NCBI RefSeq assembly: GCF_058153355.1
Contig: NZ_CM177019.1
DNA length: 64,000 bases
Strand: one strand, 5' to 3'
Notes under the pieces: generated by a model
What the model was told of the DNA's origin: nothing
The model's database searches: none
Seen by the model: only the letters and a program-made list of their open reading frames with translations
Part shown: piece by piece, positions 10,803 to 56,199 of the stretch
How the letters are laid out: each line of letters opens with the position of its first letter
Numbering within the stretch: position 1 is the first letter of the stretch
Program-made: the position numbers and the translations under genes

Positions 10803-12029
<1,227 letters not shown>

Positions 12030-12059: not shown

Positions 12060-12090
<31 letters not shown>

Positions 12091-24153: not shown

Positions 24154-24163
24154 GGAGCACAAG

Positions 24164-29235: not shown

Positions 29236-29240
29236 AAGTA

Positions 29241-37965: not shown

Positions 37966-38180
37966 GCCGAGTCCTTTGTGCGAGGAAAAATATCAGTATG
38001 GCCTGGTGATGGGAAAAAGGGCAGAAAATGTTGATGGTTTGTTACTTCCCAATAAATCACATATTTATCATGGTGATATAAATATTTTCCTAATTGTTCT
38101 TATCTGACAGATATCTCACTTAAGGCTTTCTTATAAATCTGTAGGGTTTGCACCATGAGTGCGGTAGCTATGAGGTTTAT

Positions 38181-40493: not shown

Positions 40494-40576
40494 AGAGTGA
40501 CCGCCTGTAATTGGCGTGTTTTTGCATAAATGGAACAGGGTTTTGTAGTGAAAACATATTGCTAAGGAGGATTTAT

Positions 40577-41422
40577 ATGGGAGATGGAAAGGGTAGTACG
40601 AGCGGAAAAAGCCAGAGCGGTGAACAGTGTGTAGTTTTAAAGGAGGGAAAAATTACTAATGATTTTAAAATAATGATGAGAGAGGCTCTGAAGGCGCTGA
40701 TGGCTGTATTGAAGAAAAGAGTAGAAGATCTTGGTGATAAATGGGGAGAGGAACAAAATCAGGAGTTTATAAATATATTTGGTATTGATGGAAATACTTA
40801 TATTAAATTAGAGTTCCCTTTCGGGGGGCGTAAGGTTATGTTTCCAGAGAATATAAAGGCAAGGGATTATATGAGAAATGGCGTTACTCGCCTGTATGAG
40901 ATATGTGGGGAATTATCTGTGGAAGGTGATTGTGTAGACGTTACTATTCATGACCATTTCCTCAAACGTGATGCCAATTGTAATCTTGTTCTTAATGACA
41001 AAGGGGGTAATGAATATGTTGACAAAGACGTAATCAGGCCCAAAACCGGTAACTTTGTGAATTGTACAGATAATGACGCTTATGCTGCCAATGTAACTTA
41101 CGATCAGATTTTGGGTGTAAAACCTGGAGGCTTTAAAAGTTTGGTAAGTATAACTATAGGACAAAGATTTATAGATAGGCCACCCACTGGGAAAAACTCT
41201 AAGGCATCGACACTCTGCCATGAACTATCTCACTTTATAAGGTACGGGGATTCATTTAAGTTTGGAGGCATGTGGACGGAAGATATGCCGGTAGATATAG
41301 AGTATAATACAGGTGACGAATATATTGTTCATGCCACTAAATTAAAAAATGATAAAAAATCAGAACTATTTCAGAATGCATATAATATCGAACGTTATTT
41401 CGAGATTCATGTACCATATTGA
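40577..41422 (+). CDS. Putative T6SS effector, HExxH zincin-like metallopeptidase candidate
   Basis: 281 aa from ATG 40577 (RBS aaggagg upstream); AT-rich; HELSH motif at 41219-41233 followed by …GGMWTEDMPVDIEYNTGDEY…; no signal peptide; directly downstream of vgrG-1. Confidence 0.55.
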   Translation: MGDGKGSTSGKSQSGEQCVVLKEGKITNDFKIMMREALKALMAVLKKRVEDLGDKWGEEQNQEFINIFGIDGNTYIKLEFPFGGRKVMFPENIKARDYMRNGVTRLYEICGELSVEGDCVDVTIHDHFLKRDANCNLVLNDKGGNEYVDKDVIRPKTGNFVNCTDNDAYAANVTYDQILGVKPGGFKSLVSITIGQRFIDRPPTGKNSKASTLCHELSHFIRYGDSFKFGGMWTEDMPVDIEYNTGDEYIVHATKLKNDKKSELFQNAYNIERYFEIHVPY

Positions 41423-41446
41423 TGCTTTTATTTGACGGGGGAGTAT

Positions 41447-42355
41447 ATGCTTGCTAGATGGATTGTTTTTATTGTTTTTTTTGCGCATCCAATATTTGCT
41501 TATGATATCTCTGGCGATTATGCTGTTCATTACAGATATGGGAAGTTATATTGGAATGGAGTAATGGACAAACTTGGTGTCTATCCTCGTGTAGAGCCGA
41601 CAAGGCTTAATTATTATGATTATTATGATGATCTTTCAGCCTATGCTGTTTTTCAATATTATACTATCAGTAAAAATGAGAGTCAGTATAATCAAGATAA
41701 AAATAAAATATATCTTCATCTTTCCGTGCATCAGAAAGAAAATATTGTAGCAGCTGCAGTGGTTTTATCGAATAAAAGCCAGGGATCTTATTTTGTTCAT
41801 CGACTAACTCTTCCTCTTGACGTTAACGGCGGGCCTTACTCTTCCTTGTGTAGTGGTGTGTTTATACCGATAATGGATAACATTCAGTTGGATTTTTTAA
41901 AAAAAACAAAATGTAGCTTTGGTGAATGGAAAAATAAATCCGTTTGGCACGAGATATTAACAGGGAAAGAGCTATCCTTTGATGTCATATTGAACGATTA
42001 TTATGCCTTTTTACCGGGCATTCATCGTTATAATATAGGAACGGTAGAATTTACAATAGTTAATCAAGAGTGGTTTACAGAACAATGTATATATGAGTAT
42101 TTTCTTTCTATTATGAACTGGCGGGCAGAAAGTGAGTGTACTAATCCTATAGATAAAATAAGATATGGTATAGAGGAGTGGCGGGTTTGGAGAATTTGTG
42201 GACCTTATCGTGGGTCAGGTCTATTTCAGGATTTTTTAGCACGCTTTGGCTATCATGGCGGTAATGATAATATATTCAAAATAAGATCAAATCAGGTTGT
42301 GGTTACTATTGATGGGGATAGGGCATCTCCTCCTTATTCGTTGAGGAATTATTAA
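41447..42355 (+). CDS. Putative cognate immunity protein (secreted/periplasmic) for the HExxH effector
   Basis: ~303 aa with N-terminal signal peptide MLARWIVFIVFFAHPIFA; AT-rich; starts 24 bp after the effector stop; no recognisable family. Confidence 0.45.
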   Translation: MLARWIVFIVFFAHPIFAYDISGDYAVHYRYGKLYWNGVMDKLGVYPRVEPTRLNYYDYYDDLSAYAVFQYYTISKNESQYNQDKNKIYLHLSVHQKENIVAAAVVLSNKSQGSYFVHRLTLPLDVNGGPYSSLCSGVFIPIMDNIQLDFLKKTKCSFGEWKNKSVWHEILTGKELSFDVILNDYYAFLPGIHRYNIGTVEFTIVNQEWFTEQCIYEYFLSIMNWRAESECTNPIDKIRYGIEEWRVWRICGPYRGSGLFQDFLARFGYHGGNDNIFKIRSNQVVVTIDGDRASPPYSLRNY

Positions 42356-42510
42356 TGTTAACTTATTGTCATGGCTACAATTCGTTGGTTTTCCTGTTGA
42401 GATGATAATATATATGAGAAAAACAGGCAATGAACCAGTGAGAGAATATCAGAAGATACGGTCAACATCGGTTAATTACTTTTTCCTGTAGCGATACCAG
42501 GGAGGTCATC

Positions 42511-44712
42511 ATGTCATTAAAAGGGCTGCGCTTTACGCTGACGGTGGACGGACTGGTGCCGGAGACGTTTGCGGTGGTGGATTTCCGCCTCACGCAGGCA
42601 TACTCATCGCCGTTCGTCCTGGATGTGGACGTTGCCAGCGACTCGTTCCGCCAGACGGCGGAGAAGCTGCTGGAGAAGGGGGCCGTACTGACCATCTGGC
42701 AGGGTGGCACGGCGCTGCGTTATGTGAGCGGTGTGGTGTCGGGGTTCGGCATGAAGGAGCACAACGGCTGGCAGATGCAGTACCACCTTCAGATACGTCC
42801 GCCCCTGTGGCGCAGCGGGCTGCGCCAGAACTACCGAATCTTCCAGCAGCAGGACATTCAGGCCATCTCCGCCACGCTGTTAAACGAGGACGGAGTGACG
42901 CAGTGGACGCCGCGCTTTTATGAGAGCCACCCGGCACGGGAGTTCTGCGTCCAGTACGGTGAAAGCGACATGGCGTTTCTGACCCGGCTGTGGGCGGGGG
43001 AAGGCATCTTCTTTTATGACAGATACGCTGACGACAGCCCGGAGCAGACGCTCACGCTGTGCGATGATGTGGCGGGCCTGCCGGTGTACGGGGAGATACC
43101 GTTTAACCCGAACACCCGTGAGGTGACGACGGCGTGCATCAGCCTGTTCCGCTACCAGGCGCAGGTGCGGCCCTCGCAGGTGCGTTCAAAAGACCACACG
43201 TTTAAGGTGCCGGACTGGCCGGGTATTTACATTGAGGATGCTGAAAACCTCAACGGGCAACTGAAGCAGTACAAAATCCTGGACTGGCCGGGGCGCTACA
43301 AGGACGAGCAGCATGGTCAGGACTTTACCCGCTACCGGCTGGAAGGGCTGCGTAACAGTGCTGAAACCGCCACAGGTATCAGTAACTCCCCGGCGCTGTG
43401 GCCGGGACGGCGGTTCACCTTGACGGGGCATCCGGTACAGGGAGCGAACCCGAACCGTGAGTGGCAGGTGGTGAGCAGCACGCTGACGGGGAGCCAGCCG
43501 CAGGCGCTGCACGGGAGTCACGGTGAAGGGACGACACTGAGCAATCAGTTTGAGGTGATACCGGCAGACAGGACGTGGCGTCACGCGCCGCTGCCGAAGC
43601 CGAAGGTGGACGGCCCGCAGAGTGCCATCGTGACCGGGCCGAAGGGTGAGGAGATATTCTGCGACGAGCATGGCCGGGTACGGGTGAAGTTTCACTGGGA
43701 CCGTTATCACGGGATGACGGAGGAGAGTTCGTGCTGGATACGGGTGTCGCAGGCATGGGCGGGACCGGGGTTCGGCAATCTGGCGATACCGCGTGTGGGT
43801 CAGGAAGTGATAGTGGACTTTCTGAACGGCGACCCGGACCAGCCCATTGTGACGGGGCGGACCTACCATGAAGATAACCGTTCACCGGGGGATTTACCGG
43901 GCACGCGGACGCAGATGACCATCCGCTCGAAGACCTATAAAGGAAGCGGCTTTAATGAACTGCGTTTCGAGGATGCGACGGACAGTGAGCAGGTGTATAT
44001 CCACGCGCAGAAGAACATGGACACGGAGGTGCTTAACGACCGGACGACGGACGTGAAGCATGACCATACGGAGACCATCGGTAACGACCAGAAGATAAGG
44101 GTGGTGAAGGGGCAGACGGTTGAGGTCGGCACCAGAAAAGAAGGGGGTCACGACCAGAGTATCACGGTGGCGAACGACCGGCGCATAACGGTACGTAATG
44201 ACCAGACGCTGAAGGTGACGAATGACCGGACGGTGAGCGTGAGTCACGATGACGGCCTGTATGTCAGAAACGACCGTAAAGTGACGGTGGAAGGGAAGCA
44301 GGAGCATAAGACGACGGGGAACCATATCAGCCTGGTGGAGGGAAAGCACAGTCTGGAGGTGAAGGGCGACCTGGCGAGGAAGATTACCGGTGCGCTGGGA
44401 ATGAAGGTCCGGAATGAAATCGTACTGGAGAGTGGCGGTAAAATCACCCTAAAGGTGGGTGGTTCGTTTGTGGTCATCCATTCAGGGGGCGTGGACATCG
44501 TCGGGCCGAAAATCAATCTCAATAGCGGCGGTAGTCCGGGAACGCCGGTGCCGACGCTACGACCGGCGGTTTTGAAAGCGCTGGCAGATTATGACAATGG
44601 CGGACCTGGAACTGAAGGGGCGGAGCCACCACGGAAAAGTGTACAGGAAGCCTTTGATCCTCCCCAGCAGGATAAGGTACCGCCACAACGGCCGGGAAGA
44701 TTCTCACGATAA
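42511..44712 (+). CDS. vgrG: Type VI secretion spike protein VgrG (copy 2)
   Basis: 733 aa from MSLKGLRFTLTVDGLVPETFAVVDF…; same architecture as copy 1; short Pro/Gln-rich C-terminal tail. Confidence 0.9.
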   Translation: MSLKGLRFTLTVDGLVPETFAVVDFRLTQAYSSPFVLDVDVASDSFRQTAEKLLEKGAVLTIWQGGTALRYVSGVVSGFGMKEHNGWQMQYHLQIRPPLWRSGLRQNYRIFQQQDIQAISATLLNEDGVTQWTPRFYESHPAREFCVQYGESDMAFLTRLWAGEGIFFYDRYADDSPEQTLTLCDDVAGLPVYGEIPFNPNTREVTTACISLFRYQAQVRPSQVRSKDHTFKVPDWPGIYIEDAENLNGQLKQYKILDWPGRYKDEQHGQDFTRYRLEGLRNSAETATGISNSPALWPGRRFTLTGHPVQGANPNREWQVVSSTLTGSQPQALHGSHGEGTTLSNQFEVIPADRTWRHAPLPKPKVDGPQSAIVTGPKGEEIFCDEHGRVRVKFHWDRYHGMTEESSCWIRVSQAWAGPGFGNLAIPRVGQEVIVDFLNGDPDQPIVTGRTYHEDNRSPGDLPGTRTQMTIRSKTYKGSGFNELRFEDATDSEQVYIHAQKNMDTEVLNDRTTDVKHDHTETIGNDQKIRVVKGQTVEVGTRKEGGHDQSITVANDRRITVRNDQTLKVTNDRTVSVSHDDGLYVRNDRKVTVEGKQEHKTTGNHISLVEGKHSLEVKGDLARKITGALGMKVRNEIVLESGGKITLKVGGSFVVIHSGGVDIVGPKINLNSGGSPGTPVPTLRPAVLKALADYDNGGPGTEGAEPPRKSVQEAFDPPQQDKVPPQRPGRFSR
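43497..44374. repeat. Near-identical ~0.9-kb vgrG 3'-core repeat, copy 2 of 3
   Basis: See copy 1. Confidence 0.85.
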
Positions 44713-44721
44713 GGACTGAAC

Positions 44722-47211
44722 ATGAAAATCAGCCATCCCATCAGGGATAAAGAAGGCAAAGAGTTTCGCTCACTGGATGAGATAATGCGGCTTATTGACA
44801 AAGAAGCGCACGGAACCTGGCTGCTGGGTGGAAACGGGCTGTGGCACGGCGGGATACATATCAGTGACGTGTCTAATCCGTTATCAGCCCTGAAACCGGA
44901 TACCGCCGCTACCGGAGAACCGGTTCCTCTTCAGTTTATGGCCGATGGCACCATTGCGGCGTACCGGATAAATAATGATTACCTGAAAGGCCCCTACAAA
45001 GGGCAGCAACTCCGTTACAGCAGCACATTTGTTCTGGTGAAATCGCAGTGCCAGCCAGACCCGCAAAAAAAAGAAAGCTGGCTGGAATTTTACTGTCTCT
45101 ATATGCATCTGGCCCCGGTGAACGATTATCCCGGCTCCCCCTGCTATAAAGTTAAAACCGGGCATGGTGGCATATTGCTGCACCGATACATCCCGGGAAA
45201 GAACGGCCTTCCCGAGGGGCAGGAAAGCGGAGATCATGCCACGTACTGGATACCCCCGAAAATCAGCGGAAACAGGACACTTAATGCGGGAGATCGGTTT
45301 GTGTCATCCCGGACCGGACGTTTTTACGTGACCAATAACGGCCAGCCGGTCCTGACGACATTCGGACTGGTTCGCCTGCTGGAAGGCAATAAACCGGGGA
45401 ATGAGCAGTACTGGGTGACCCTGGATCCGGATCTGATGGAGTCAGATGGCGAAATACAGATGCTGATGCCTGAGTGGATGCAGAAGGCGAAGGCAAAAGG
45501 CATTTTTGACTCGGTACAGACGGTCGACGAAACGGAAGAGTGGAAAGTCAGTGCCGGAACACCGGTCGGATTTATGGGATGCGAGGATTATCCTGGCGAG
45601 GGAAGCGGTGAGATTGAGCGCGAGTGGTTCGTCCATCTGGAGGTTCTGAGTACAGACCCGAATATGCCAAAGTTCTTATCCAACCCGGCAGGCGTTAAGG
45701 GAGAAAAACGGACTGTTCTGGCACCAAAAGGGATAATTTTATACACCCGGCAGGCCGTTCCGGGACAGGAGGTATTTACCGCAACCGCAGCCACGCTGGG
45801 TGCTCAGCGCGTTCTTCCGCGGGAAGCCACGACACCAGTCACGGATGAATCGCAGCAGTGGTGGTTTAATATCACCGGAACCGGCTGGCTGCCACAAAAG
45901 GATGTTGAAGAGGCCGGACAGTATGATTTACTGAAGCTGGGTTTTCAACCGCTGGAGGAGAACAGCAGCGGTGACATGACGTACAGCCCGTACGAAGGAT
46001 GGGTGCCGGAAGCGTTTGACTCAATAAGCCGTGCCGCAGAACAGGGAGATGAGTGGCTGTATGAGCAGGTACCGCCCTTTTATCGTGAGCTGATGGCGGG
46101 TATGGATCAGGACGGTGATGGAAAAGTGACGGAGGAAGAGATCAGACAGGCGCTGATCGTGCGTGAACCACTGGTGAGAAATGTGGTGAATCATCTGATA
46201 GTTAAACACCACAGCGAATGGTACGGAGGGCGCTCGACAGGGCGGTGGGAAGGATTTTATAAAGATCTGGATACAGAGGAAGTGGCATACTGTGAGAAGT
46301 GGCAGCTGGATCTGGAGTGGATGAGCGGGGTATCTCCGTTTAATAGTGATGATGCTGTGTGGCATTTTCATCCGGTTGTGTTTTTGGACGCTATTAATTC
46401 CAAATCTGTGTGTGCTTGCAACAGAGATATAACATTAGATGAATTAAAAAAAGTTGCTCCTGCAGTAAGTGAAGGTCTTCTCAAAAGGTACCTCTACGAT
46501 ATAAATGCAGGGTTTATTCGGTTTGGTATGACCACTTGTAGAGAAAAAGCCCATTTTCTTGCTCAAATTATTCACGAGAGCGGTTATTTTAGATATACCA
46601 AAGAAATTAATGGTGAATCAGCTTCATATAGTCCGTGGTATGGCCGAGGCTTAATACAAGTTACAGGCGAAAGTAATTACACCGCCTATGGGGAATATAT
46701 CAATGAGGACGTAACATCTTCAGATTCCGCAAGAGATAAACTCATATCCTCCCCACATTGCGTATTATCTGCGTTTTGGTATTTCAATATATTCAAAAGA
46801 ATAAATGAAGATGCTAAAAATGATGATTTTAATAAAATTACAGTAGTGATTAATGGAGGGTATAATCATTATGATGAACGGTTGTCGATATTTAATAAAT
46901 TGGTTACCTCACTTGCTGCCGAGCATTTAAATCAGAAAGAAATGAACGACGATTTCTTGTTTGATGATAGTGACGTATATGATAATAAAGTATATGCTTT
47001 GGGATGGGGGATATGGCATGATCCTGATAGCTCCCGAAGAGGGACGATCAAGAGTAACGAAGAAGCATTAAAAGGTTATAGAAGGGCGAAAGAATTAATT
47101 GACCTGCATCCGTTTCCTCAGGAAGGGCGTGAGGGTGATAGAAAAGTATATGGAATAGAAAAAAGGAATATATCCACATTTGTAGAGAGACGAATAACTG
47201 AACTGGAGTAA
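44722..47211 (+). CDS. Large T6SS effector: possible M23/LytM-like N-region, EF-hand calcium-binding motif, C-terminal GH19/lysozyme-like peptidoglycan hydrolase domain
   Basis: 829 aa; EF-hand loop DQDGDGKVTEEE (~46102); C-terminal …REKAHFLAQIIHESGYFRYTKEINGESASYSPWYGRGLIQVTGESNYTAYG… (from ~46537) matches the GH19 / 'predicted chitinase' catalytic signature; N-region WHGGIHISDV…ADGTIAAY…YMHL resembles a divergent M23 peptidase (tentative). Confidence 0.7.
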   Translation: MKISHPIRDKEGKEFRSLDEIMRLIDKEAHGTWLLGGNGLWHGGIHISDVSNPLSALKPDTAATGEPVPLQFMADGTIAAYRINNDYLKGPYKGQQLRYSSTFVLVKSQCQPDPQKKESWLEFYCLYMHLAPVNDYPGSPCYKVKTGHGGILLHRYIPGKNGLPEGQESGDHATYWIPPKISGNRTLNAGDRFVSSRTGRFYVTNNGQPVLTTFGLVRLLEGNKPGNEQYWVTLDPDLMESDGEIQMLMPEWMQKAKAKGIFDSVQTVDETEEWKVSAGTPVGFMGCEDYPGEGSGEIEREWFVHLEVLSTDPNMPKFLSNPAGVKGEKRTVLAPKGIILYTRQAVPGQEVFTATAATLGAQRVLPREATTPVTDESQQWWFNITGTGWLPQKDVEEAGQYDLLKLGFQPLEENSSGDMTYSPYEGWVPEAFDSISRAAEQGDEWLYEQVPPFYRELMAGMDQDGDGKVTEEEIRQALIVREPLVRNVVNHLIVKHHSEWYGGRSTGRWEGFYKDLDTEEVAYCEKWQLDLEWMSGVSPFNSDDAVWHFHPVVFLDAINSKSVCACNRDITLDELKKVAPAVSEGLLKRYLYDINAGFIRFGMTTCREKAHFLAQIIHESGYFRYTKEINGESASYSPWYGRGLIQVTGESNYTAYGEYINEDVTSSDSARDKLISSPHCVLSAFWYFNIFKRINEDAKNDDFNKITVVINGGYNHYDERLSIFNKLVTSLAAEHLNQKEMNDDFLFDDSDVYDNKVYALGWGIWHDPDSSRRGTIKSNEEALKGYRRAKELIDLHPFPQEGREGDRKVYGIEKRNISTFVERRITELE

Positions 47212-47216
47212 TTGAT

Positions 47217-47627
47217 ATGAAAGTTAATTTATTGGTTTTACTGTTTTGTTTGGTGCCTTGTTGTTTATTGGCTAAACAACAAACAACGGTAGGCTGTTTT
47301 AGCGCTGGGAAAACAAATTTAAAGTTTGTTGAAATATCGTCTGGCGATATTTTTTTAGGTTATGTGATTTATGAGAAATCCTCAAAATTTATACCTCTTG
47401 CGTTTATAAATAAATTAGAAGTGACTTTCGATGACAGGCCTTCTGAATTTTCTTATGCATGGAGCGAGGTTGTAAATGGAAAAATTAATGGGTTGTATGT
47501 TGTTTCCACACAAGGTGCAAGATTTAATTTGTTTCATTATAAATCAATAAGTGGGAAAACAACTGAGTTTGAAGAAAATATTGAGGCATATAATGATGAT
47601 GGTACTGATTGCAAATGGACTGGATGA
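47217..47627 (+). CDS. Putative periplasmic immunity protein for the lysozyme-like effector
   Basis: 136 aa with N-terminal signal sequence MKVNLLVLLFCLVPCCLLA; begins 5 bp after the effector stop; AT-rich. Confidence 0.45.
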   Translation: MKVNLLVLLFCLVPCCLLAKQQTTVGCFSAGKTNLKFVEISSGDIFLGYVIYEKSSKFIPLAFINKLEVTFDDRPSEFSYAWSEVVNGKINGLYVVSTQGARFNLFHYKSISGKTTEFEENIEAYNDDGTDCKWTG

Positions 47628-47775
47628 CCATTGTGCAGTTTTTTATGAAATCGATGCTGTGTTATTAAAATAATAATGCGACTAGGTTGAATTTGTTTAT
47701 TATTAATTTAAATGTTTTATGATTTTAAGTTAGACATGAATAACTGACTGGAAAATTATTTTTGAGGGATATCGT

Positions 47776-49070
47776 ACAGGCAGGCAGGGAAAGATCACGT
47801 AACGCTGCTTTTTTGTACTATACAATTCGCATTTTATGTTTGAAAATTGAGATATTCCTCATTACCTGAAGCTGTTTTTTATTGCTTATACATGATCAAA
47901 TACTCCTTACATAATTAAGGAGAACAAAATGGTACTTAAAAAATTGATGGAACATATTTCTATTATCCCCGATTACAGACAAGCCTGGAAAGTGGAACAT
48001 AAATTATCGGATATTCTACTGTTGACTATTTGCGCCGTTATTTCGGGTGCAGAAGGCTGGGAAGATATAGAGGATTTTGGGGAAACACATCTCGATTTTT
48101 TGAAGCAATATGGTGATTTTGAAAATGGTATTCCTGTTCACGATACCATTGTCAGAGTTGTATCCTGTATCAGTCCTGCAAAATTTCACGAGTGCTTTAT
48201 TAACTGGATGCGTGACTGCCATTCTTCAGATGATAAAGGCGTCATTGCAATTGATGGAAAAACGCTCCGGCACTCTTATGACAAGAGTCGCCGCAGGGGA
48301 GCGATTCATGTCATTAGTGCGTTCTCAACAATGCACAGTCTGGTCATCGGACAGATCAAGACGGATGAGAAATCCAATGAGATTACAGCTATCCCAGAAC
48401 TTCTTAACATGCTGGATATTAAAGGAAAAATCATCACAACTGATGCGATGGGTTGCCAGAAAGATATTGCAGAGAAGATACAAAAACAGGGAGGTGATTA
48501 TTTATTCGCGGTAAAAGGAAACCAGGGGCGGCTAAATAAAGCCTTTGAGGAAAAATTTCCGCTGAAAGAATTAAATAATCCAGATCATGACAGTTAAGCG
48601 ATTAGTGAAAAGAGTCACGGCAGAGAAAAAATCCGTCTTCATATTGTTTGCGATGTCCCTGATGAACTTATTGATTTCACGTTTGAATGGAAAGGTCTGA
48701 AGAAATTATGCGTGGCAGTCTCCTTTCGGTTAATAATAGCAGAACAAAAGAAAGAGCCAGAAATGACGGTCAGATATTATATCAGTTCTGCTGATTTAAC
48801 CGCAGAGAAGTTCGCCACAGCAATCCGAAACCACTGGCACGTGGAGAATAAGCTGCACTGGCGTCTGGACGTGGTAATGAATGAAGACGACTGCAAAATA
48901 AGAAGAGGAAACGCCGCAGAATTATTTTCAGGGATACGGCACATCGCTATTAATATTTTAACGAATGATAAGGTATTCAAGGCAGGGTTAAGACGTAAGA
49001 TGCGAAAAGCAGCCATGGACAGAAACTATCTCGCGTCAGTCCTTGCGGGGAGCGGGCTTTCGTAATCTTG
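47776..49070 (+). mobile_element. ISAs1-family (H-repeat / ISEc1-like) element inserted into vgrG copy 3
   Basis: ~1.3 kb; contains the H-repeat transposase gene; left-end sequence (gtacaggcagggaaagatcac…) recurs at 51856 and ~53976; right end abuts vgrG sequence beginning mid-gene (…FEVIPADRTW…). Confidence 0.7.
47929..49065 (+). pseudogene. ISAs1-family transposase (H-repeat protein, YhhI-like) with an in-frame TAA at 48595-48597
   Basis: ORFs 47929-48597 and 48712-49065 are in the same frame and both match the H-repeat protein ([58 protein letters not shown]… and …[41 protein letters not shown]…); full span would encode 378 aa. Confidence 0.8.
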
Positions 49071-49074
49071 CCCT

Positions 49075-49900
49075 GGAGGTGATACCGGCGGACAGGACGT
49101 GGCGTCACGCGCCCCTGCCGAAGCCGAAGGTGGACGGCCCGCAGAGTGCCATCGTGACCGGGCCGAAGGGCGAGGAGATATTCTGCGACGAGCATGGCCG
49201 GGTACGGGTGAAGTTTCACTGGGACCGTTATCACGGGATGACGGAGGAGAGTTCATGCTGGATACGGGCGTCGCAGGCATGGGCGGGACCGGGGTTCGGC
49301 AATCTGGCGATACCGCGTGTGGGTCAGGAAGTGATAGTGGACTTTCTGAACGGCGACCCGGACCAGCCCATTGTGACGGGGCGGACATACCATGAGGACA
49401 ACCGTTCACCGGGGGATTTACCGGGCACGCGGACGCAGATGACCATCCGCTCGAAGACCTATAAAGGAAGCGGCTTTAATGAACTGCGTTTCGAGGATGC
49501 GACGGACAGTGAGCAGGTGTATATCCACGCGCAGAAGAACATGGACACGGAGGTGCTTAACGACCGGACGACGGACGTGAAGCATGACCATACGGAGACC
49601 ATCGGTAACGACCAGAAGATAAGGGTGGTGAAGGGGCAGACGGTTGAGGTCGGCACCAGAAAAGAAGGGGGTCACGACCAGAGTATCACGGTGGCGAACG
49701 ACCGGCGCATAACGGTACGTAATGACCAGACGCTGAAGGTGACGAATGACCGGACGGTGAGCGTGAGTCACGATGACGGCCTGTATGTCAGAAACGACCG
49801 TAAAGTGACGGTGGAAGGGAAGCAGGAGCATAAGACGACGGGGAACCATATCAGTCTGGTGGAGGGAACGCACAGTCTGGAGGTGAAGGGCGACCTGGCG
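49075..49900. repeat. Near-identical vgrG 3'-core repeat, copy 3 of 3
   Basis: See copy 1. Confidence 0.8.
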
Positions 49901-51492
49901 AGGAAGATTACCGGTGCGCTGGGAATGAAGGTCCGGGATGAAATCGTACTGGAGAGTGGTGGTAAAATCACCCTGAAGTGGGTGGCTCGTTTGTGGTCGT
50001 TCATTCTGGTGGTGTGGATATTGTCGGACCGAAAATAAATCTGAATTGCGGGCGCAGTCCGGGGACGCCGATAAATACACTACAACCGGCAGTTATGGAC
50101 GCTCTGGCTGACGAGCAGTATGACAGAGGGAATGCTGGCGGCGGGAATGACGGAGAGCCTAGTGATGAGGATGAATCAGAAGGTGGAGAAGAAGACAAGG
50201 ACGATTCAGATGAACTGGTAATTCCTGTATACGCAAAATCTTGTCTGAAGGAGAAAGGCTGCACTGATGCTGGTACGACCATGGAGCCATCGAAACATTT
50301 TGGTGATATGGCTCTATTTGCCCAGCCAGTGGAGGATGACTGTTGCGGCTATGGTACACACTATCATGACGATGAAGTGGAGCAACTTGCGCAGTCAGCA
50401 AAAAAAACCTCAGGAGCGAACTCACTGACGGGGGAAATGACAGTTGCGTCAGCGGGTGTTGCGGTTCCACTAGCGGCGGAACAGTCTGCGGGAGTTTTAA
50501 CTCGCGTATGGGGAACATTAGGGGCATGGGGTGGAGAAGGTTTTTTAAGTGTATCAAAAACGGTGCCAGCCCTTGGTGTCCTAGTATCAGCACTATATCC
50601 AATACCTGCCGGTGAAGGTAGTGATAAAGTTCCTGGACGGGATGAACAGTGGCTCGAAAATGAGCTACGTCGTAAAGCGCAATCTGGAGAGACGGCAGCT
50701 ACGCGGGCGCGCTTTCTCTTTCAGCGGAATACTGCTGGTGAATTGAGGACATACGGATACCACACACCCGCAGGTTCGGAACTTGAAGGTGTTCGGGTAG
50801 CATTGATGGAGTGGAATAAGGAATTTTCCCGTTATGAATTTTCACCTGTGTCTGATTCGGGACCAAAAATATTTTGGACGCCTGCAAAGCCAGAAGGTTC
50901 AGAGCAGCCCATACACACCGGAACTCCTGTCGAACCAGTTGATCTACCTGATATTTATGTTAATCCGATACCCGATGAAAAAACAGATATCACCACGCCG
51001 CCTTCTCCAATGCCGGAGGAGCGAAATTTTAATGACTGGATACTTGTCTTTCCTGACGGTGCGGAATTAACACCAATATATGTGTATCTGAAAACTGCAA
51101 GGGATGTAGCGGGAACAGTAACAGGTAAGGGGGAGGTGTTAGCAGGTACAGGAAGATGGCTGTCGCAGGCGGGGAAAAGCTTAGGAGTGCCAATTCCACA
51201 ACAGGTCGCAAATAAACTTCGGAGTAAGTCATTTAACAATTTTGATGAATTCATGGCAGCTTTCTGGACTGCTGTAGGTGAATGTCCAGAACTATTGAGC
51301 CAATTTAATAAAGCTAACCAAACGTTGATAAAGCGTGGACGCGCACCTTATACTATATCAAGACAAAGAGTTGGGGGGCGAGGTACATTTGAAATTCATC
51401 ATATTGACGAAATCCAATATGGGGGAGAAGTCTATGATATTGATAATCTTAGAGTAAACACACCTAAAAACCACATACGATTGCATAAATAA
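49075..51492 (+). pseudogene. vgrG: vgrG copy 3, 'evolved' VgrG with C-terminal colicin E9/pyocin-type HNH DNase domain; 5'-truncated by ISAs1 and carrying a -1 frameshift near 49976
   Basis: Starts mid-gene at the ISAs1 right end; vgrG frame runs to ~49976 where ctgaagtgggtgg has lost one G relative to copies 1/2 (ctgaaggtgggtgg); downstream frame continues through a linker to …GVPIPQQVANKLRSKSFNNFDEFMAAFWTAVGECPELLSQ…RQRVGGRGTFEIHHIDEIQYGGEVYDIDNLRVNTPKNHIRLHK (~51169-51489), which aligns closely with the colicin E9 DNase domain. Confidence 0.8.
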
Positions 51493-51505
51493 AAAGGAGG
51501 TAGTA

Positions 51506-51778
51506 ATGGAGTTTAAAAATAATCTAGAAGATTATACGGAAGATGAATTTATCGAACTTCTAAATAATTTTTTTGAACCACCTGAGGAATTGCATGGCGA
51601 TAAGTTGTCGAAGTTTATTGATGATCTTGTAAGTCATTTTATTAGAATCACTCAGCACCCAGATGGTAGTGATTTGATATTCTATCCATCTGAAGATAGA
51701 GAAGATAGTCCCCAAGGGATTGTTGATGAGTTAAAACGATGGCGAGCATCGCAGGGGCTAGGATGCTTTAAAATATAA
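51506..51778 (+). CDS. Colicin E9-type DNase immunity protein (Im9-like)
   Basis: 90 aa: MEFKNNLEDYTEDEFIELLNNFF…HFIRITQHPDGSDLIFYPSEDREDSPQGIVDELKRWRASQG aligns along its length with Im9 (MELKHSISDYTEAEFLQLV…[35 protein letters not shown]); strong RBS aaggagg; 13 bp after the DNase stop. Confidence 0.85.
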   Translation: MEFKNNLEDYTEDEFIELLNNFFEPPEELHGDKLSKFIDDLVSHFIRITQHPDGSDLIFYPSEDREDSPQGIVDELKRWRASQGLGCFKI

Positions 51779-51855
51779 TGAAAATAAATACTCATCATAT
51801 TTTATTAAAATGATTGGTGTTTTTGTTATTAACCTTAAACCACTTCCTGAGAAGG

Positions 51856-52301
51856 TGGTACAGGGAAAGATCACCAGAAGTACACTTTTTGTACTAAATA
51901 ATTCGCATTTTATGTTCAATAATTGAGATATTCCTCATTACCTGAGGCTGTTTTTTATTGCTTATACATGATCAAATACTCCTTACATAATTAAGGAGAA
52001 CAAAATGGAACTTAAAAAATTGATGGAACATATTTCTGTTATTCCTGATTACAGACAAGCCTGGAAAGTGGAACATAAATTGTCGGATATTCTACTTTTG
52101 ACTATTTGCTCCGTCATTTCTGGTACAGAAGGCTGGCAAGATATAGAGAATTTTGGGGAAACACATCTCGATTTTTTGAAGCGACATGGTGATTTTTGAA
52201 ATGGTATTCCTGTTCACATACCATTGCCAGAGTTGTATCCTGTATCAGCCCTGCAAAATTTCATGAGTGCTTTATTAAAAGGAAACCAGGGGCGGCTTAA
52301 T
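51856..52301 (+). mobile_element. Degraded ISAs1/H-repeat remnant (left end plus internally deleted transposase fragment) fused to effector sequence
   Basis: Left-end sequence and transposase N-terminus ([58 protein letters not shown]…) present, then a deletion to the internal …KGNQGRLN segment, which joins directly to effector-2-like sequence at ~52302. Confidence 0.6.
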
Positions 52302-53465
52302 ATCACCGGAACCGGCTGGCTGCCACAAAAGGATGTTGAAGAGGCCGGACAGTATGATTTACTGAAGCTGGGTTTTCAACCGCTGGAGGAGAACAGCAGC
52401 GGTGACATGACGTACAGCCCGTACGAAGGATGGGTGCCGGAAGCGTTTGACTCAATAAGCCGTGCCGCAGAACAGGGAGATGAGTGGCTGTATGAGCAGG
52501 TACCGCCCTTTTATCGTGAGCTGATGGCGGGTATGGATCAGGACGGTGATGGAAAAGTGACGGAGGAAGAGATCAGACAGGCGCTGACCGTGCGTGAACC
52601 ACTGGTGAGAAATGTGGTGAATCGTCTGACAGTCAGACACCACAGCGAGTGGTACGGCGGTCGCTCGACGGGACGCTGGGAAGGGTTTTATAAAGATCTG
52701 GACACCGAGGAAGTGGCATACTGTGAAAAGTGGCAGCTGGATCTGGAGTGGATGAGCGGGGTGTCTCCGTTTAATAGTGATGATGCTGTGTGGCATTTTC
52801 ATCCGGTTGTGTTTTTGAATGCTATTAATAATAGCAATTACCCAAAAACTCCTGTGAATAATGAACTTATTCCATTGGAATTTTTACGATTTTATAACGG
52901 AGATACCATTGATGATGCAGACTATGAAAATGCTGCAAGGACACTACAATGCGAAGTGGCTGCAATTAAAGCTGTTGCAAAAACTGAAACTGGTAGTTCC
53001 GGTAGCTATTTTAAATTTGAACAAGAAGATGATTACGTCCCCTCAATTCTTTTTGAAAGACATCATTTCCATCGATATACGAATGGTGTGTATGATTCTC
53101 AACCTGATATTTCCAACAGCCGTTCTGGCGGTTATGGAACACGATCGGAGCAATATCAAAAATTACTTCGTGCATATGTTTTAGATAAGCAAGCTGCGCT
53201 TAAATCGGCATCGTGGGGTAAATTTCAGATATTGGCTTCAAATTACCAAGCTACCGGGTACTCTTCGCCCGAAGAGTTTATAATATCGATTTCAGAGTTA
53301 GAGAAAAACCATCTGGCGGCATTCATTAACTTCATAAAATCTAATCCTGTATTATTGCGTGCTATTAGAGATAAAGATTGGCTTAACTTTGCTCTATGTT
53401 ATAATGGGCAAAGTCAGCGAGGATATGATGACAGAATAAGGGCTAATTATGAGCAATATAGATAG
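52302..53465 (+). CDS. Orphan effector 3' module: conserved effector mid-region fused to a muramidase-like (PF11860/DUF3380-type) C-terminal domain; 5' end replaced by the H-repeat remnant
   Basis: 52302-52817 is ~97% identical to effector-2 45871-46386 (NITGTGWLPQKDVEEAGQYDLLK…EF-hand…VWHFHPVVFL), after which the sequence diverges into …AAIKAVAKTETGSSGSYFKFEQEDDYVPSILFERHHFHRYT…SASWGKFQILASNYQATGYSSPEEFI…NGQSQRGYDDRIRANYEQY, resembling the N-acetylmuramidase family (recalled motif pattern, not searched). Confidence 0.55.
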   Translation: MTGTGWLPQKDVEEAGQYDLLKLGFQPLEENSSGDMTYSPYEGWVPEAFDSISRAAEQGDEWLYEQVPPFYRELMAGMDQDGDGKVTEEEIRQALTVREPLVRNVVNRLTVRHHSEWYGGRSTGRWEGFYKDLDTEEVAYCEKWQLDLEWMSGVSPFNSDDAVWHFHPVVFLNAINNSNYPKTPVNNELIPLEFLRFYNGDTIDDADYENAARTLQCEVAAIKAVAKTETGSSGSYFKFEQEDDYVPSILFERHHFHRYTNGVYDSQPDISNSRSGGYGTRSEQYQKLLRAYVLDKQAALKSASWGKFQILASNYQATGYSSPEEFIISISELEKNHLAAFINFIKSNPVLLRAIRDKDWLNFALCYNGQSQRGYDDRIRANYEQYR

Positions 53466-53898
53466 AGCATTAATTTTTATTTTTTTATCTGGAATTCCCT
53501 GGACTCTACACGCAGGAAATAATTATTTTTTATGTAATACATCCAAAGGAACTTTGTCATTAACAAGTTTTGGTGAAACGTTGATTTATGAAATGAATAG
53601 TCAGCATGGGAATAAATTTCAATTCATTTCAGATGGACCAATGTATTCAGGATTTTTTTATAATCATTACTCCAGATTTCAAACGGATTACTTTAGCGTT
53701 AGTTTTATTCAAAGTGGATATAAGTACTCCGTGTTTAGCAATTACGACAACGGTAGTAACATGCGAGGGGTTAGTGTCATTGATATGAAAACAAAAAAAG
53801 AATACGTTTATAATTGCAAAGATTATAAAGTGGACAGGCTTTATAATCTGAAAAAAAAGCTTAAATGTGATATTAATAATGTACTAAGTTGTCAGTAA
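53449..53898 (+). CDS. Putative periplasmic immunity protein for the muramidase-like toxin module
   Basis: 149 aa, hydrophobic N-terminus MSNIDRALIFIFLSGIPWTLHA; overlaps the effector stop by 17 nt; very AT-rich. Confidence 0.4.
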   Translation: MSNIDRALIFIFLSGIPWTLHAGNNYFLCNTSKGTLSLTSFGETLIYEMNSQHGNKFQFISDGPMYSGFFYNHYSRFQTDYFSVSFIQSGYKYSVFSNYDNGSNMRGVSVIDMKTKKEYVYNCKDYKVDRLYNLKKKLKCDINNVLSCQ

Positions 53899-53975
53899 AT
53901 TGTATCTTACAACGTTCGGGCGGTACGATTTACTGAAGCTGGCTTTTCATAGGCTGGAGGAAAACAGCAAGGGTA

Positions 53976-54645
53976 ATAAAGGTAAAGACCATATAACGCC
54001 GATTTTTTGCACTAAACAATTAGCACTAAATGTCCAATAATCAAGATATCCCTTATTATTTAATAAGTGTTTTCATAGCTTATATATATTCAGACACTCC
54101 TTACATAAACAAGGAGAAAAAATGGAACTTAAAAAATTAATGGAGCATATTTCTACTGTCCCGATTACAGACAAGTCTGGAAAGTAGAGTATAAATTATC
54201 AGATATCCTAGTGCTGATTATTTTCGCCATCCTTTCCGGAGCTGAAGGATGGGAAGATATAGAGGATTCTGGTGAGACTCATCTCGATTTGTTGAAGCAA
54301 TATGGTGATTTTTAATATGGTATTCCTATTCACGATATCATTGCCAGAGTTGTGTCCTGTATCAGTCCTGGAAAATTTCACGAGTTCTTTATTAGCTGGA
54401 TGTGTGACTGTCATTCTTCAGATAATAAAACCATCATCGCAATAGATGGAAAAGCACTCCAGCACTTTTTTGATTAGCATCGTCGCAGAGGAACAATTCA
54501 TAATCATTGCGATCTCGACGATGTATAGTCTGATCCTGCGGCAGAACAAGACGGATAAAAAATCTAATGAGAGCACACTCATCAAGAACTTCTCAACCTA
54601 ATGAATATTAAAGAAAAATCATCGCAGCCAATGAAGTAATATGCA
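53976..54645 (+). mobile_element. Heavily degraded ISAs1/H-repeat remnant (multiple stops/frameshifts, 3' truncated)
   Basis: Recognisable but broken transposase N-terminus ([11 protein letters not shown]…[28 protein letters not shown]…); preceded at 53921-53975 by another fragment of the effector mid-region (…YDLLKL…LEEN…). Confidence 0.55.
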
Positions 54646-54697
54646 AAAATAATTAGTCCTTACAAGGAGCAAAGTTCCATAATCTCCCCCGCCCCCC

Positions 54698-55834
54698 TCA
54701 ATGATCCAAATAAAGATAATGCATCCAACTGGTCATTCTTAGCAGCACTTTCCGCATCACCGAAACATGGCTGAAATGGTCGGAGTAAACCGCCACCTGG
54801 GCGTAGATACCGTCGGGTAAGGCATCAATATCAGCGTTAGGGTCCAGTTCGATGGTTCCCAGCACACCGTCCGTGCCGGGCACGACGGTTAATGATTGCA
54901 GTACCCCTTGCGCCTGATACGAACCACCAGGCACCACCGGCAAGATGCTGGTCAGTTTGCCGTGGAATACCTGCCCAGGTAGCGCGTTAAACACCACTTC
55001 CGCATCATCGCCGGGTTTCAGACGTAACAGCGAGTTCTGCCGAAATTGGGCGACAATTTGCCGTTTTTGCTCGGGGATGAAAACCATCACCGGACGTAGC
55101 GGCAAGGCAGCTGCGTATGTACCTGGGCGGATCAGTACCTGAGTAACGTAGCCATTGCTTGGTGCGCGAATGACAGTCTGCTCAAGGTTATATTTTGCTT
55201 CGGTAAGTTGCGCTCTTAAGCTCACAATCTGCGATTGCTCGCCGTTAACCATACTGTCGAGCTGACTCTGGATCTGCGCCTGCTCCGCCACCGAGCCTTT
55301 CACCAGCGCGTCCTGCGCGAGGAAGTTTTGCCGCGCATCGTCGATGTCACGTTCCGAGAACGGATTCACTGCCGCCTGGCTGCCTTTCAGGTAACGTTGA
55401 TAATTTTTAAACAAGCGGTCACGCTCCGCTGAAACCTGGGTGGTGTTGGCCTGCGCTTCAGTGAGCTGCGCGCGCAGCGTCTTTATATTATGCGTCGCCG
55501 TCATCAGGTCAGCCTGAAGCCTGTCAACTCGCACCTGGTAACGAACCGGGTCGAGTTTAAAAAGCACCTCGCCCTTTTGAATAAGCTGATTATTCTTGTC
55601 AGTGACTTCAGTAACAATTCCCGTCACCTGTGGCGTGATGGGGATCGCTATCACTGCCTTTTGCGCGGTAAAAGTGTAAGGGTGGTTGTAGTTCATCAAC
55701 AAAATCAAACCACTCACCAGAAACACGCCTCCCAGCGCCGCCGTCGCCAGCGTCCACTGATTTACCGGAATGCGGAAGATTTTAAAGACCGCCCACGCCA
55801 GCGCCACGTAAGTTAAAACAATCAATAGATCCAT
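54698..55834 (-). CDS. yibH: HlyD-family membrane fusion protein (yiaV paralogue)
   Basis: 378 aa, ~75% identical in sequence pattern to the yiaV product at 28099-29235; position upstream of mtlA. Confidence 0.9.
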
Positions 55835-55836
55835 AT

Positions 55837-56199
55837 TTAGATCTCCGGGAACGTGGAATAGTCAGTCTTTTTCTCGGCGGCGAGTTGATGCTCCAGCCGG
55901 GAAATTCGGTCAGAAAGTGCGGCGATTTCCGGGTCAGTCGCTTTCTCCTGCGACGCAACATGTGACTGCATACCCCAGCCACGCTCCGGTTGATAGAGCG
56001 TCGCCCAGATCCACAGGAACGGCCAGATAACATGCAGAGTAAACAGGCTCACCCAGCCCGCCGTATGAATAGCGTCGGCATGGGGGTGATTGCGCTTTTT
56101 GGCAATCAGATAAGGGATGTCATGTATCGCGATGATTCCATAAAAAATCACCAGAAAGACGAAGATCAGCACTCCCAACGCGAAATAGTTTAGAAACAT
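55837..56199 (-). CDS. yibI: DUF3302 small inner-membrane protein (yiaW paralogue)
   Basis: 120 aa: [45 protein letters not shown]…. Confidence 0.85.

What the first reader, a model, noticed from the sequence alone, without database searches (positions are those of the whole stretch)
47776..49070. ISAs1/H-repeat element inserted in vgrG-3, with its transposase inactivated by a single nonsense codon
The element is near full length (~1.3 kb) but the transposase frame contains TAA at 48595-48597, where the functional K-12 H-repeat protein, as I recall it, has a Tyr codon (…[12 protein letters not shown]… vs …[13 protein letters not shown]…). Two further degraded copies (51856-52301, 53976-54645) flank the orphan module, indicating repeated H-repeat activity at this locus, as classically seen at Rhs elements, here at vgrG islands instead.
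Basis: partly seen in the sequence, partly recalled or inferred. Interest (0 to 1): 0.4.

Follow-up and report, generated by a model that had tools for sequence, protein, structure and literature searches.

The report
Dead ISEc1 copy at toxin-island joint
This is an ordinary full-length copy of the E. coli insertion sequence ISEc1 (the "H-repeat") whose transposase gene is cut short by one stop codon, and it sits at a rearrangement joint between toxin/immunity cassettes rather than as a clean insertion splitting a gene.

Summary
Window 47785-49075 is a complete 1291-bp ISEc1 (ISAs1 family) with both terminal inverted repeats, 97-98.5% identical to intact E. coli copies. Its 378-codon transposase frame has no indels. 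Codon 223 is TAA (48595-48597), where K-12 YhhI and three other intact copies have TAC (Tyr). The stop lies between the predicted catalytic D172 and E306, so the copy cannot move on its own.

- **Junctions.** Only the right IS end abuts vgrG, exactly at nt 1042 of a pyocin-DNase-tipped vgrG. The left end abuts intergenic DNA after an unrelated immunity gene. There is no target duplication, and the first 1041 nt of that vgrG are absent.
- **Location.** The island fills the yibF-yibH site, which is the K-12 RhsA site, and shares both borders with RhsA.
- **Degraded copies.** They are real (51861-52302; 53979-54623) but belong to different IS lineages. One travelled with the pyocin cassette. The other is the widespread yibU remnant.

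Related strains differ by exactly the interval between the full IS and the first fragment, which points to recombination between the IS copies.

No reads were available. The TAA allele was found in no other assembly. The kind is known and interest is low.

The parts
47785..49075 (+). Full-length ISEc1 (ISAs1 family, 'H-repeat'), 1291 bp, with a pseudogenised transposase
   Evidence: End-to-end BLAST to annotated intact ISEc1 copies and to the K-12 yhhI element, 96.9-98.5%. RefSeq annotates the matching places as 'ISAs1-like element ISEc1 family transposase'.
47785..47799 (+). Left terminal inverted repeat, CAGGGAAAGATCACG
   Evidence: Identical to the left ends of intact copies L003 and L004; flanks diverge immediately outside it.
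49061..49075 (+). Right terminal inverted repeat, CGTAATCTTGCCCTG (13/15 complementary to the left one); it contains the natural transposase stop codon at 49063-49065
   Evidence: Same right end as L005, L007 and the K-12 yhhI element.
47929..49065 (+). Transposase reading frame: 378 codons, no indels, interrupted once
   Evidence: Translation. Pfam DDE_Tnp_1_assoc plus DDE_Tnp_1. NCBIfam NF033564 ISAs1 family transposase, 409 bits against a cut-off of 70.
48595..48597 (+). Premature stop TAA at codon 223 (TAC = Tyr in intact copies; C to A at 48597)
   Evidence: Alignments with L003, L004, L005 and K-12 YhhI. It lies between D172 and E306. The truncated 222-aa product covers only positions 1-186 of the 314-position ISAs1 model.
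48585..48600 (+). Cluster of three private substitutions (48585 G>T giving E219D; 48597 C>A giving the stop; 48600 A>G, silent)
   Evidence: All three are unique against three intact copies. No place among 20,333 ISEc1-like matches in 5049 genomes has fewer than 4 mismatches over 71 bp. Three of 8 private changes falling within 16 bp has p of about 0.02 by simulation.
47887..47915 (+). Promoter-like site (TATACA-17-CATAAT) upstream of the transposase start, with AAGGAG at 47917-47922
   Evidence: Consensus scan only, plus the sequence itself.
49076..51492 (+). 5'-truncated vgrG fused to Pyocin_S and a colicin/pyocin DNase domain. It starts at vgrG nt 1042 and has a 1-bp deletion at 49977 that splits it into ORFs 49043-50038 and 49978-51492
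   Evidence: Homology to vgrG-2 starts exactly at 49076. It is 98% identical to the 3' part of intact 1151-aa VgrG-pyocin genes in L009/L012. Frameshift. Pfam domains.
51506..51778 (+). Intact colicin/pyocin immunity gene (90 aa)
   Evidence: Pfam PF01320. The identical protein is on record in 152 blocks of the public collection, next to full-length VgrG-pyocin genes.
51861..52302 (+). Degraded ISAs1 copy ('fragment 2'): IS positions 1-419 (92%) joined to 728-754, then fused to a truncated effector gene
   Evidence: BLAST. The junction sequence is the same in L001 and L012. Its left flank is homologous to that of the full-length IS after the pyocin immunity gene in ET350.
52303..53465 (+). 3' part of an effector paralog with a C-terminal N-acetylmuramidase domain (orphan)
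   Evidence: 52287-52829 is about 96% identical to 45856-46398 of the 829-aa effector gene. Pfam Muramidase.
53449..53898 (+). 149-aa ORF in the position of the muramidase immunity gene (no family assignment)
   Evidence: ORF list. No Pfam hit. The role is inferred from position only.
53979..54623 (+). Degraded, diverged ISAs1 copy ('fragment 3'): IS positions 1-651 at 81%; its distal part is orthologous to the K-12 pseudogene yibU
   Evidence: BLAST. Window 54403-56455 matches K-12 L006 9946-12001 at 96.5%. The 54403-54696 part is present in 3731 of 5426 genomes.
42511..47627 (+). Intact upstream module: vgrG-2 (42511-44712), 829-aa effector (44722-47211, one GLxQ motif: GLIQ at residue 643), and a 136-aa ORF in the immunity position (47217-47627)
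   Evidence: ORFs. Pfam. Collinear with L001 at 97.9%. GLIQ motif.
38003..54696 (+). The whole accessory island between yibF and yibH (16.7 kb)
   Evidence: The empty site in strain Z0117EC0005 joins window 38002 to 54697 with only 32 bp between them. K-12 RhsA occupies the same site and shares 38003-38149 and 54403-54696.

Best explanation
Window 47785-49075 is a structurally complete but non-autonomous ISEc1 (H-repeat, ISAs1 family). A C-to-A substitution turned Tyr223 (TAC) into TAA. The 222-residue product keeps the N-terminal domain and two of the three predicted catalytic acidic residues (D109, D172). It lacks E306 and the C-terminal third, so it should not catalyse transposition. Both inverted repeats are intact, so an intact ISEc1 transposase made elsewhere in the genome could in principle still move it.

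The copy is not a simple insertion. Its right end was created by transposition into a pyocin-DNase-tipped vgrG at nt 1042. Its left end belongs to a different site, the intergenic DNA after the immunity gene of the upstream vgrG-2 module. The two flanks were most likely brought together by recombination or deletion involving IS copies. That left a promoterless, 5'-truncated and frameshifted vgrG-pyocin gene with an intact immunity gene as an 'orphan' cassette.

Today the element matters mainly as a stretch of portable homology. Together with the same-orientation IS fragment 4 kb downstream it brackets the orphan cassette, and related strains have exactly that interval missing.

Shown: the element's identity, ends, stop codon and junction positions, and the deletion polymorphism. 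Inferred: loss of catalytic activity, the order of events, and recombination as the mechanism.
For: - **Identity, length and ends:**
- **Family assignment:**
- **Stop codon against four intact copies:**
- **Position of the stop:** it lies between the D172 and E306 motifs.
- **Relaxed constraint:** five of six private coding changes alter the protein (E2V, A75V, E219D, Y223*, S268L, plus one silent).
- **Right junction:** exact, at vgrG nt 1042.
- **Left flank:** shared with strains that lack the pyocin cassette.
- **No target duplication:**
- **Deletion polymorphism:** L001 is collinear with window 37558-48203 and with 51861-55259, and the two alignments overlap on the same 419 bp of L001 (10232-10650). 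That 419-bp stretch matches the full IS, not fragment 2, at 32 of 35 informative sites, and it shares the left flank.
- **Distribution of the short arrangement:** all ten loci returned for the identical 136-aa protein have it.
- **Mobility of the cassette:** the same vgrG-pyocin-immunity-IS cassette occurs with a full-length 1151-aa VgrG at the kdpA-phr site (the RhsC position, from my knowledge of the K-12 map) and at ansP-yncG (the RhsE position).
- **Base-level assembly quality:** 35 of 37 flanking core genes are intact, with no frameshifts.
Against: - No read data were available. The TAA allele and the IS-vgrG junction were found in no other assembly, so nothing independent confirms them.
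- The stop sits in a cluster of three private substitutions within 16 bp (p about 0.02, post hoc). This could be one odd mutational event or a local consensus error.
- Loss of catalysis is inferred from motif positions, not measured. Transposition of H-repeats has not been observed in E. coli at all (PMC3032704), so 'inactivation' may change little.
- The deletion reading needs the exchange to resolve within the last 14 bp of the 419-bp homology, or the whole heteroduplex to be corrected to one parent.
- The short arrangement is common and the window's arrangement is unique, so the window could instead be the derived state.
Confidence: 0.8

Rival explanations
1. The TAA is a sequencing or assembly error, the true codon is TAC/TAT, and the transposase gene is intact.
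For: The allele is private. No ISEc1-like place in 5049 complete genomes comes closer than 4 mismatches in 71 bp, and there are no exact hits in the genome or metagenome collections. Three private changes cluster within 16 bp around the stop. Multi-copy IS elements are error-prone targets for consensus polishing.
Against: It is a base substitution outside any homopolymer. Across about 33 kb of flanking core genes, 35 of 37 are intact and none is frameshifted. The lineage is genuinely divergent: 45 private differences in the adjacent 2.8 kb, and the best core identity to any complete genome is 99.0%, so private substitutions are expected. Cross-mapping from paralogous IS copies would import variants seen in other copies, and these are seen in none. 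The same ORF carries four further private missense changes, as expected for a decaying gene.
Confidence: 0.1
2. The present structure is a simple ISEc1 insertion that splits an otherwise complete vgrG-3.
For: The right IS end meets vgrG sequence exactly, so a transposition into a vgrG did occur at some point.
Against: The left flank is AT-rich intergenic DNA after the 136-aa gene, not vgrG. The only vgrG sequence found upstream of the IS belongs to the complete vgrG-1 and vgrG-2 genes. There is no target duplication. The same left junction exists in strains without any vgrG-3.
Confidence: 0.03
3. The window's arrangement is derived, not ancestral. A short (L001-like) array acquired the IS 3' part plus the truncated vgrG-pyocin-immunity cassette by gene conversion. 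The donor would be a copy of the cassette at another site whose vgrG already carried an ISEc1. The crossovers would lie in the IS 5' 419 bp and in the conserved effector segment.
For: The short arrangement is the only one seen in ten other loci and the window's is unique. Window 49076-52816 is collinear at 98% with kdpA-phr-site arrays, including 515 bp of effector homology to the right.
Against: It leaves unexplained how the short array came to have the identical complex junction (IS 419 joined to 728-754 joined to the effector) on an IS of the other lineage with a different left flank, without a prior window-like intermediate. No donor with an ISEc1 at vgrG nt 1042 was found in any collection.
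Confidence: 0.25
4. The 222-residue N-terminal product is functional as a DNA-binding regulator or inhibitor of ISEc1 transposition, as truncated transposases are in some other IS families.
For: It retains the N-terminal DDE_Tnp_1_assoc domain and a promoter-like site with a Shine-Dalgarno sequence upstream.
Against: There is no sign of selection. The allele is private to this genome, and it carries private missense changes in the retained part (E2V, A75V, E219D). No such regulator is known to me for ISAs1 elements.
Confidence: 0.04

Closest known systems
ISEc1 / H-repeat (H-rpt) of E. coli Rhs elements, e.g. the K-12 yhhI (RhsB-linked) and ydcC (RhsE-linked) copies; ISAs1 family
   Same: Same length (1291 bp), same termini and 96.9-98.5% nucleotide identity. 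Same single 378-codon transposase frame. Same kind of location: the distal part of a toxin island at an Rhs chromosomal site, among displaced toxin-tip/immunity cassettes.
   Different: Codon 223 is a stop, and there are four private missense changes. The neighbouring genes are vgrG modules, not an rhs core gene.
K-12 yibU, ybfL and similar defective H-repeat pseudogenes
   Same: Fragment 3 shares its distal 220 bp and its truncation point (IS position 651) with yibU at the same chromosomal border. Decayed H-repeats are the norm at these sites, with RefSeq notes such as 'frameshifted', 'internal stop' and 'incomplete'.
   Different: The focal copy is structurally complete and has only a point lesion.
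E. coli vgrG islands carrying VT effector/immunity modules (Ma et al. 2018, as summarised in PMC6730261)
   Same: vgrG followed by an effector and a small ORF in the immunity position. The 829-aa effector carries a GLxQ motif like the lysozyme-type VT5 described there.
   Different: That summary does not discuss IS-bounded truncated vgrG cassettes. Here a specialised VgrG (Pyocin_S plus DNase) survives only as a 5'-truncated orphan.
Orphan toxin-tip/immunity arrays of Rhs and CDI loci, and orphan immunity genes of T6SS clusters (the C-terminal displacement model; cited in PMC3032704 and PMC6730261)
   Same: A promoterless 3' toxin fragment that keeps homology to the full-length gene, followed by an intact immunity gene, downstream of an intact module.
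   Different: The truncated carrier is a vgrG rather than rhs or cdiA, and the truncation point is an IS end rather than a homology breakpoint.

Membership tests
ISAs1 family / ISEc1 (H-repeat) | Transposase matches the curated ISAs1 family model above its cut-off | tested here: met
   NF033564: 409 bits against a cut-off of 70, covering model positions 1-314 (conceptual translation with X at the stop). Pfam DDE_Tnp_1_assoc plus DDE_Tnp_1.
ISAs1 family / ISEc1 (H-repeat) | Same IS by nucleotide identity and length as reference copies (ISfinder's 'same element' rule of roughly 95% or more nucleotide identity is quoted from memory) | tested here: met
   1291 of 1291 bp aligned. 96.9% to the K-12 yhhI element and 97.0-98.5% to three copies that RefSeq names ISEc1.
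ISAs1 family / ISEc1 (H-repeat) | Terminal inverted repeats of the family type (ends CAGGG...; family descriptor from memory) | tested here: met
   CAGGGAAAGATCACG and CAGGGCAAGATTACG, 13/15 matching. The ends coincide with those of intact copies, whose flanks all differ.
ISAs1 family / ISEc1 (H-repeat) | One uninterrupted transposase ORF, i.e. an autonomous element | tested here: not met
   TAA at codon 223. The element is a member by descent, but a pseudogenised one.
ISAs1 family / ISEc1 (H-repeat) | Direct target-site duplication flanking the element (8-10 bp for the family, from memory) | tested here: not met
   Left flank ...gtacaggcagg, right flank gaggtgatacc.... Of limited weight, because the other copies examined (L003, L005, L007) also show none.
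ISAs1 family / ISEc1 (H-repeat) | Demonstrated transposition | not testable with these tools
   Needs an experiment. PMC3032704 states that transposition of H-rpt has not been observed.
Simple IS insertion disrupting a gene | Both halves of the target gene flank the IS | tested here: not met
   Only vgrG nt 1042 onwards is present, to the right. The left flank is intergenic DNA after the 136-aa gene.
Rhs element in the classical K-12 sense | Located at a named Rhs chromosomal site | tested here: met
   Lies between yibF and yibH/yibI, the RhsA site, and shares both island borders with K-12 RhsA.
Rhs element in the classical K-12 sense | Contains an rhs core (YD-repeat) gene | tested here: not met
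   The island proteins scanned show VgrG, EF-hand, muramidase, pyocin and immunity domains, or no family. None is an RHS/YD-repeat protein.
Orphan T6SS toxin/immunity cassette | 5'-truncated toxin gene homologous to a full-length secreted carrier, followed by an intact cognate-type immunity gene | tested here: met
   49076-51492 is 98% identical to the 3' 2.4 kb of the 1151-aa VgrG-Pyocin_S-DNase genes. The 90-aa immunity protein is identical to the one next to those genes.
Orphan T6SS toxin/immunity cassette | Immunity protects against the cognate toxin; the toxin fragment is silent or re-activatable | not testable with these tools
   Needs competition assays and expression data.

The most novel reading that the evidence does not exclude
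H-repeat (ISEc1-type) copies, whether or not they can still transpose, act as the portable homology that moves, stacks and deletes vgrG-borne toxin/immunity cassettes among the E. coli RhsA, RhsC and RhsE sites. On this reading, 'orphan vgrG-CT' arrays are built and pruned in the way Rhs-CT orphan arrays are. The pieces seen here are the same vgrG-pyocin-immunity-IS cassette at three sites, an IS end as the truncation point of the orphan, and a strain polymorphism whose breakpoints are two IS copies.
Probability: 0.4. Interest if true: 0.35.

Novelty: new member of a known kind. Interest (0 to 1): 0.15.

Why it matters
In itself it matters little. Decayed H-repeats at E. coli toxin islands have been known since the K-12 Rhs work, and one more pseudogenised copy is routine annotation.

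The locus is still a clean worked example of two things:
- IS copies, dead or alive, bracket a toxin/immunity cassette and provide the homology for gaining or losing it.
- The cell keeps an intact pyocin-DNase immunity gene after the matching weapon has been disabled.

For annotation, the point is that the vgrG fragment here is an orphan at a rearrangement joint, not a recently interrupted gene that excision of the IS would restore.

Tried and rejected
1. **Independent occurrences of the TAA allele or the IS-vgrG junction.** None was found by any of these routes:
   - megablast and blastn of a 71-bp probe against 5426 complete E. coli genomes;
   - a 150-bp junction probe;
   - exact-pattern scans of the species-representative genomes and JGI metagenomes;
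   - exact-protein look-ups of the 222-aa, 117-aa, 504-aa and 829-aa products.

   The source strain is evidently not in these collections, and its best core identity to any complete genome is 99.0%.
2. **Target-site duplications.** None is present here. None is present in the other copies examined either, including an ISEc1 inside rhsB that turned out to have about 196 bp of rhs missing at the insertion point. Absence of a duplication is therefore weak evidence on its own.
3. **A template for the three clustered private substitutions** (gene conversion or template switching). Nothing in the window on either strand matched the 20-mer with fewer than 6 mismatches.
4. **Apparent extension of some database matches 11-12 bp beyond the IS ends**. 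The flanks of the fetched copies share no consistent sequence, so the 1291-bp limits stand.
5. **Literature.** I searched for descriptions of H-repeats at vgrG islands. I found general statements on H-rpt and Rhs tips (PMC3032704) and on vgrG islands and orphan immunity genes (PMC6730261), but no paper in the held library dealing with this specific arrangement. One apparent hit for 'ISEc1' was in fact ISEc12.

Full report
**What is at the coordinates**

The sequence from 47785 to 49075 is a complete 1291-bp copy of ISEc1, the ISAs1-family element long called the H-repeat.
- It aligns from its first to its last base with copies that RefSeq annotates as intact 'ISAs1-like element ISEc1 family transposase' (98.5%, 98.4% and 97.0% identity).
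- It aligns the same way with the K-12 yhhI element (96.9%).
- ISEc1-like DNA is present in 5342 of 5426 complete E. coli genomes, at a median of five places per genome.
- The ends are CAGGGAAAGATCACG and, on the other strand, CAGGGCAAGATTACG. Sequence outside these ends differs in every copy I fetched, so the element's limits are 47785 and 49075, not 47776 and 49070.
- The conceptual protein hits Pfam DDE_Tnp_1_assoc and DDE_Tnp_1 and the NCBIfam ISAs1 transposase model at 409 bits against a cut-off of 70.

**The stop codon**

The frame 47929-49065 has 378 codons, no indel, and one stop: TAA at 48595-48597. K-12 YhhI and three other intact copies read [16 protein letters not shown] with TAC at this codon.

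The conserved acidic motifs are AIDGK (D109), TTDAMG (D172) and WHVENK (E306). The stop at 223 falls before the third. Assigning these as the catalytic triad is my inference from the usual layout of IS4-like DDE transposases; it was not tested. The 222-residue product covers only positions 1-186 of the 314-position family model.

The copy also carries seven other private substitutions relative to three intact copies. Five of these lie in the coding frame, and four of the five change the protein, which fits decay under relaxed constraint. Both inverted repeats are intact, so mobilisation in trans is not excluded.

**Is the stop real?**

I could not see reads, and I looked for the allele elsewhere without success.
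- No place among 20,333 ISEc1-like matches in 5049 complete genomes has fewer than four mismatches to the 71 bp around the stop.
- Exact-pattern scans of the species-representative genomes and of JGI metagenomes found nothing.
- The exact truncated products are not on record.

The stop is the middle one of three private substitutions within 16 bp (48585, 48597, 48600). That clustering has a post hoc probability of about 0.02, and I found no template for it in the window. I cannot explain it.

Three things argue against a consensus error:
- The change is a substitution outside any homopolymer.
- 35 of 37 flanking core genes are intact, and none is frameshifted.
- The lineage is genuinely divergent. 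Its best core identity to any complete genome is 99.0%, and the adjacent 2.8 kb has 45 private differences.

I put the error hypothesis at about 0.1.

**Not a simple insertion in vgrG**

Homology to vgrG starts at 49076, the first base after the IS, and corresponds to nt 1042 of vgrG-2 (95.9% over 1033 bp). That junction must have been made by transposition into a vgrG.

The left flank tells a different story. It is the AT-rich spacer following the 136-aa gene at 47217-47627, and there is no target-site duplication. The first 1041 nt of this vgrG are absent from the locus.

What remains has a 1-bp deletion at 49977. It continues into Pyocin_S and colicin/pyocin DNase domains, followed by an intact 90-aa immunity gene.

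Elsewhere the identical immunity protein sits next to a full-length 1151-aa VgrG-Pyocin_S-DNase gene between kdpA/ybfA and ybgA/phr. A 92%-identical version lies between yncG and a second vgrG in strain ET350. From my knowledge of the K-12 map, these are the RhsC and RhsE positions.

**The locus and the other two copies**

The island runs from 38003 to 54696.
- The closest complete genome has an empty site, with yibF and yibH 70 bp apart.
- K-12 has RhsA in the same place and shares the first 147 bp and the last 294 bp of the island.

Fragment 2 (51861-52302) consists of IS positions 1-419 at 92% identity, joined to positions 728-754 and then fused to the 3' part of an effector paralog. This whole stretch, from vgrG nt 1042 through the fragment and 515 bp of effector sequence, is collinear at 98% with arrays at the kdpA-phr site in other strains. 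The left flank of fragment 2 matches that of the full-length IS after the pyocin immunity gene in ET350. Fragment 2 therefore belongs to the cassette and need not reflect transposition at this locus.

Fragment 3 (53979-54623) is only 81% identical to ISEc1. It stops at IS position 651, as K-12 yibU does. Its distal part plus the island border is present in 3731 of 5426 genomes. All three copies have the same orientation.

**A polymorphism bounded by IS copies**

Strain MFDS1022581 (L001) is collinear with the window from 37558 to 48203 and again from 51861 to 55259. The two alignments overlap on the same 419 bp of L001.
- That 419-bp stretch has the window's left flank.
- It matches the full IS, not fragment 2, at 32 of 35 informative sites. 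Two of the three exceptions are sites where the window's IS carries a private change; at the third, L001 has a base of its own.
- It then continues with the fragment-2 junction.

Two further complete genomes share this structure, as do all ten loci returned for the identical 136-aa protein.

The simplest account is a deletion of about 4.1 kb by recombination between the 5' part of the full IS and fragment 2. That deletion removed the IS 3' part and the orphan cassette. It requires the exchange to resolve in the last 14 bp, or the heteroduplex to be corrected wholly to one parent. The reverse direction, acquisition by gene conversion, is a live rival (about 0.25). Either way, the IS copies are the breakpoints.

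**Comparison with what is known**

H-repeats among displaced toxin tips at Rhs loci, without observed transposition, are textbook E. coli biology (PMC3032704). vgrG islands with effector/immunity modules, and orphan immunity genes, are also described (PMC6730261). RefSeq routinely annotates ISAs1 pseudogenes beside vgrG modules.

This copy is therefore a new, privately mutated member of a known kind. The mildly interesting aspect is the vgrG-borne orphan cassette whose truncation point is an IS end. I found no description of that in the held literature, but it is a small step from the Rhs and CDI orphan model.

**Verdict**

Novelty is low, and interest is 0.15.

Noticed in passing
window 24836-24838: A second nonsense mutation in the window. 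The glycoside hydrolase family 127 gene (24164-26134) has TAG where the closest complete genome has CAG (Gln225), which splits it into ORFs 24116-24838 and 24893-26134.
   Followed up: partly
window ~21190-21240: The L-ribulose-5-phosphate 4-epimerase gene (annotated araD in the reference; sgbE by its K-12 position) has lost 188 bp relative to strain Z0117EC0005. The deletion lies between two copies of an 11-bp direct repeat, ATCTGGCGCTT.
   Followed up: partly
window ~10780-12200 (ORF 11000-11980): An extra segment of about 1.3 kb between avtA and ysaA, absent from the closest complete genome. It encodes an intact 326-aa IS110-family transposase (Pfam DEDD_Tnp_IS110 plus Transposase_20).
   Followed up: partly
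window 49977: A 1-bp deletion (GAAGGTGGG to GAAGTGGG) in the truncated vgrG-pyocin gene, relative to intact 1151-aa versions. The orphan toxin gene is therefore frameshifted as well as 5'-truncated.
   Followed up: yes
window 53917-53969: A 53-bp scrap, 85% identical to nt 1194-1246 of the 829-aa effector gene (encoding ...YDLLKLAFHRLEENSKG), lies a few bases to the left of fragment 3. Fragment 2 is fused to the same effector region at about nt 1151. Both IS junctions thus fall within about 100 bp of one effector segment.
   Followed up: partly
L007 1785-3075 (E. coli 05-3629, rhsB): An intact ISEc1 inside rhsB, shared by many strains. It has no target duplication, and about 196 bp of rhs sequence is missing at the insertion point relative to the K-12 rhsA core. 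ISEc1 junctions may commonly come with small deletions.
   Followed up: partly
L008 4095-5984; L009 6858-8180; L021, L029: Group II intron reverse-transcriptase genes sit inside ISAs1/ISEc1 copies in several strains. In E. coli 042 the IS is split at IS position ~1087.
   Followed up: no
window 28099-29564 and 54698-56199: The island's right neighbours yibH/yibI have paralogs yiaV/yiaW 25 kb upstream in the same window (77% and 74% protein identity).
   Followed up: no
window 44722-47211: The 829-aa effector after vgrG-2 has an EF-hand match and one GLxQ motif (GLIQ at residue 643), the motif reported for the lysozyme-like VT5 effector of E. coli vgrG islands. No Pfam or NCBIfam family covers its C-terminal part.
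   Followed up: partly
window 40511-42355: Two ORFs (303 and 307 aa) between vgrG-1 and vgrG-2 have no Pfam or NCBIfam family. By position they would be the effector and immunity pair of vgrG-1.
   Followed up: no
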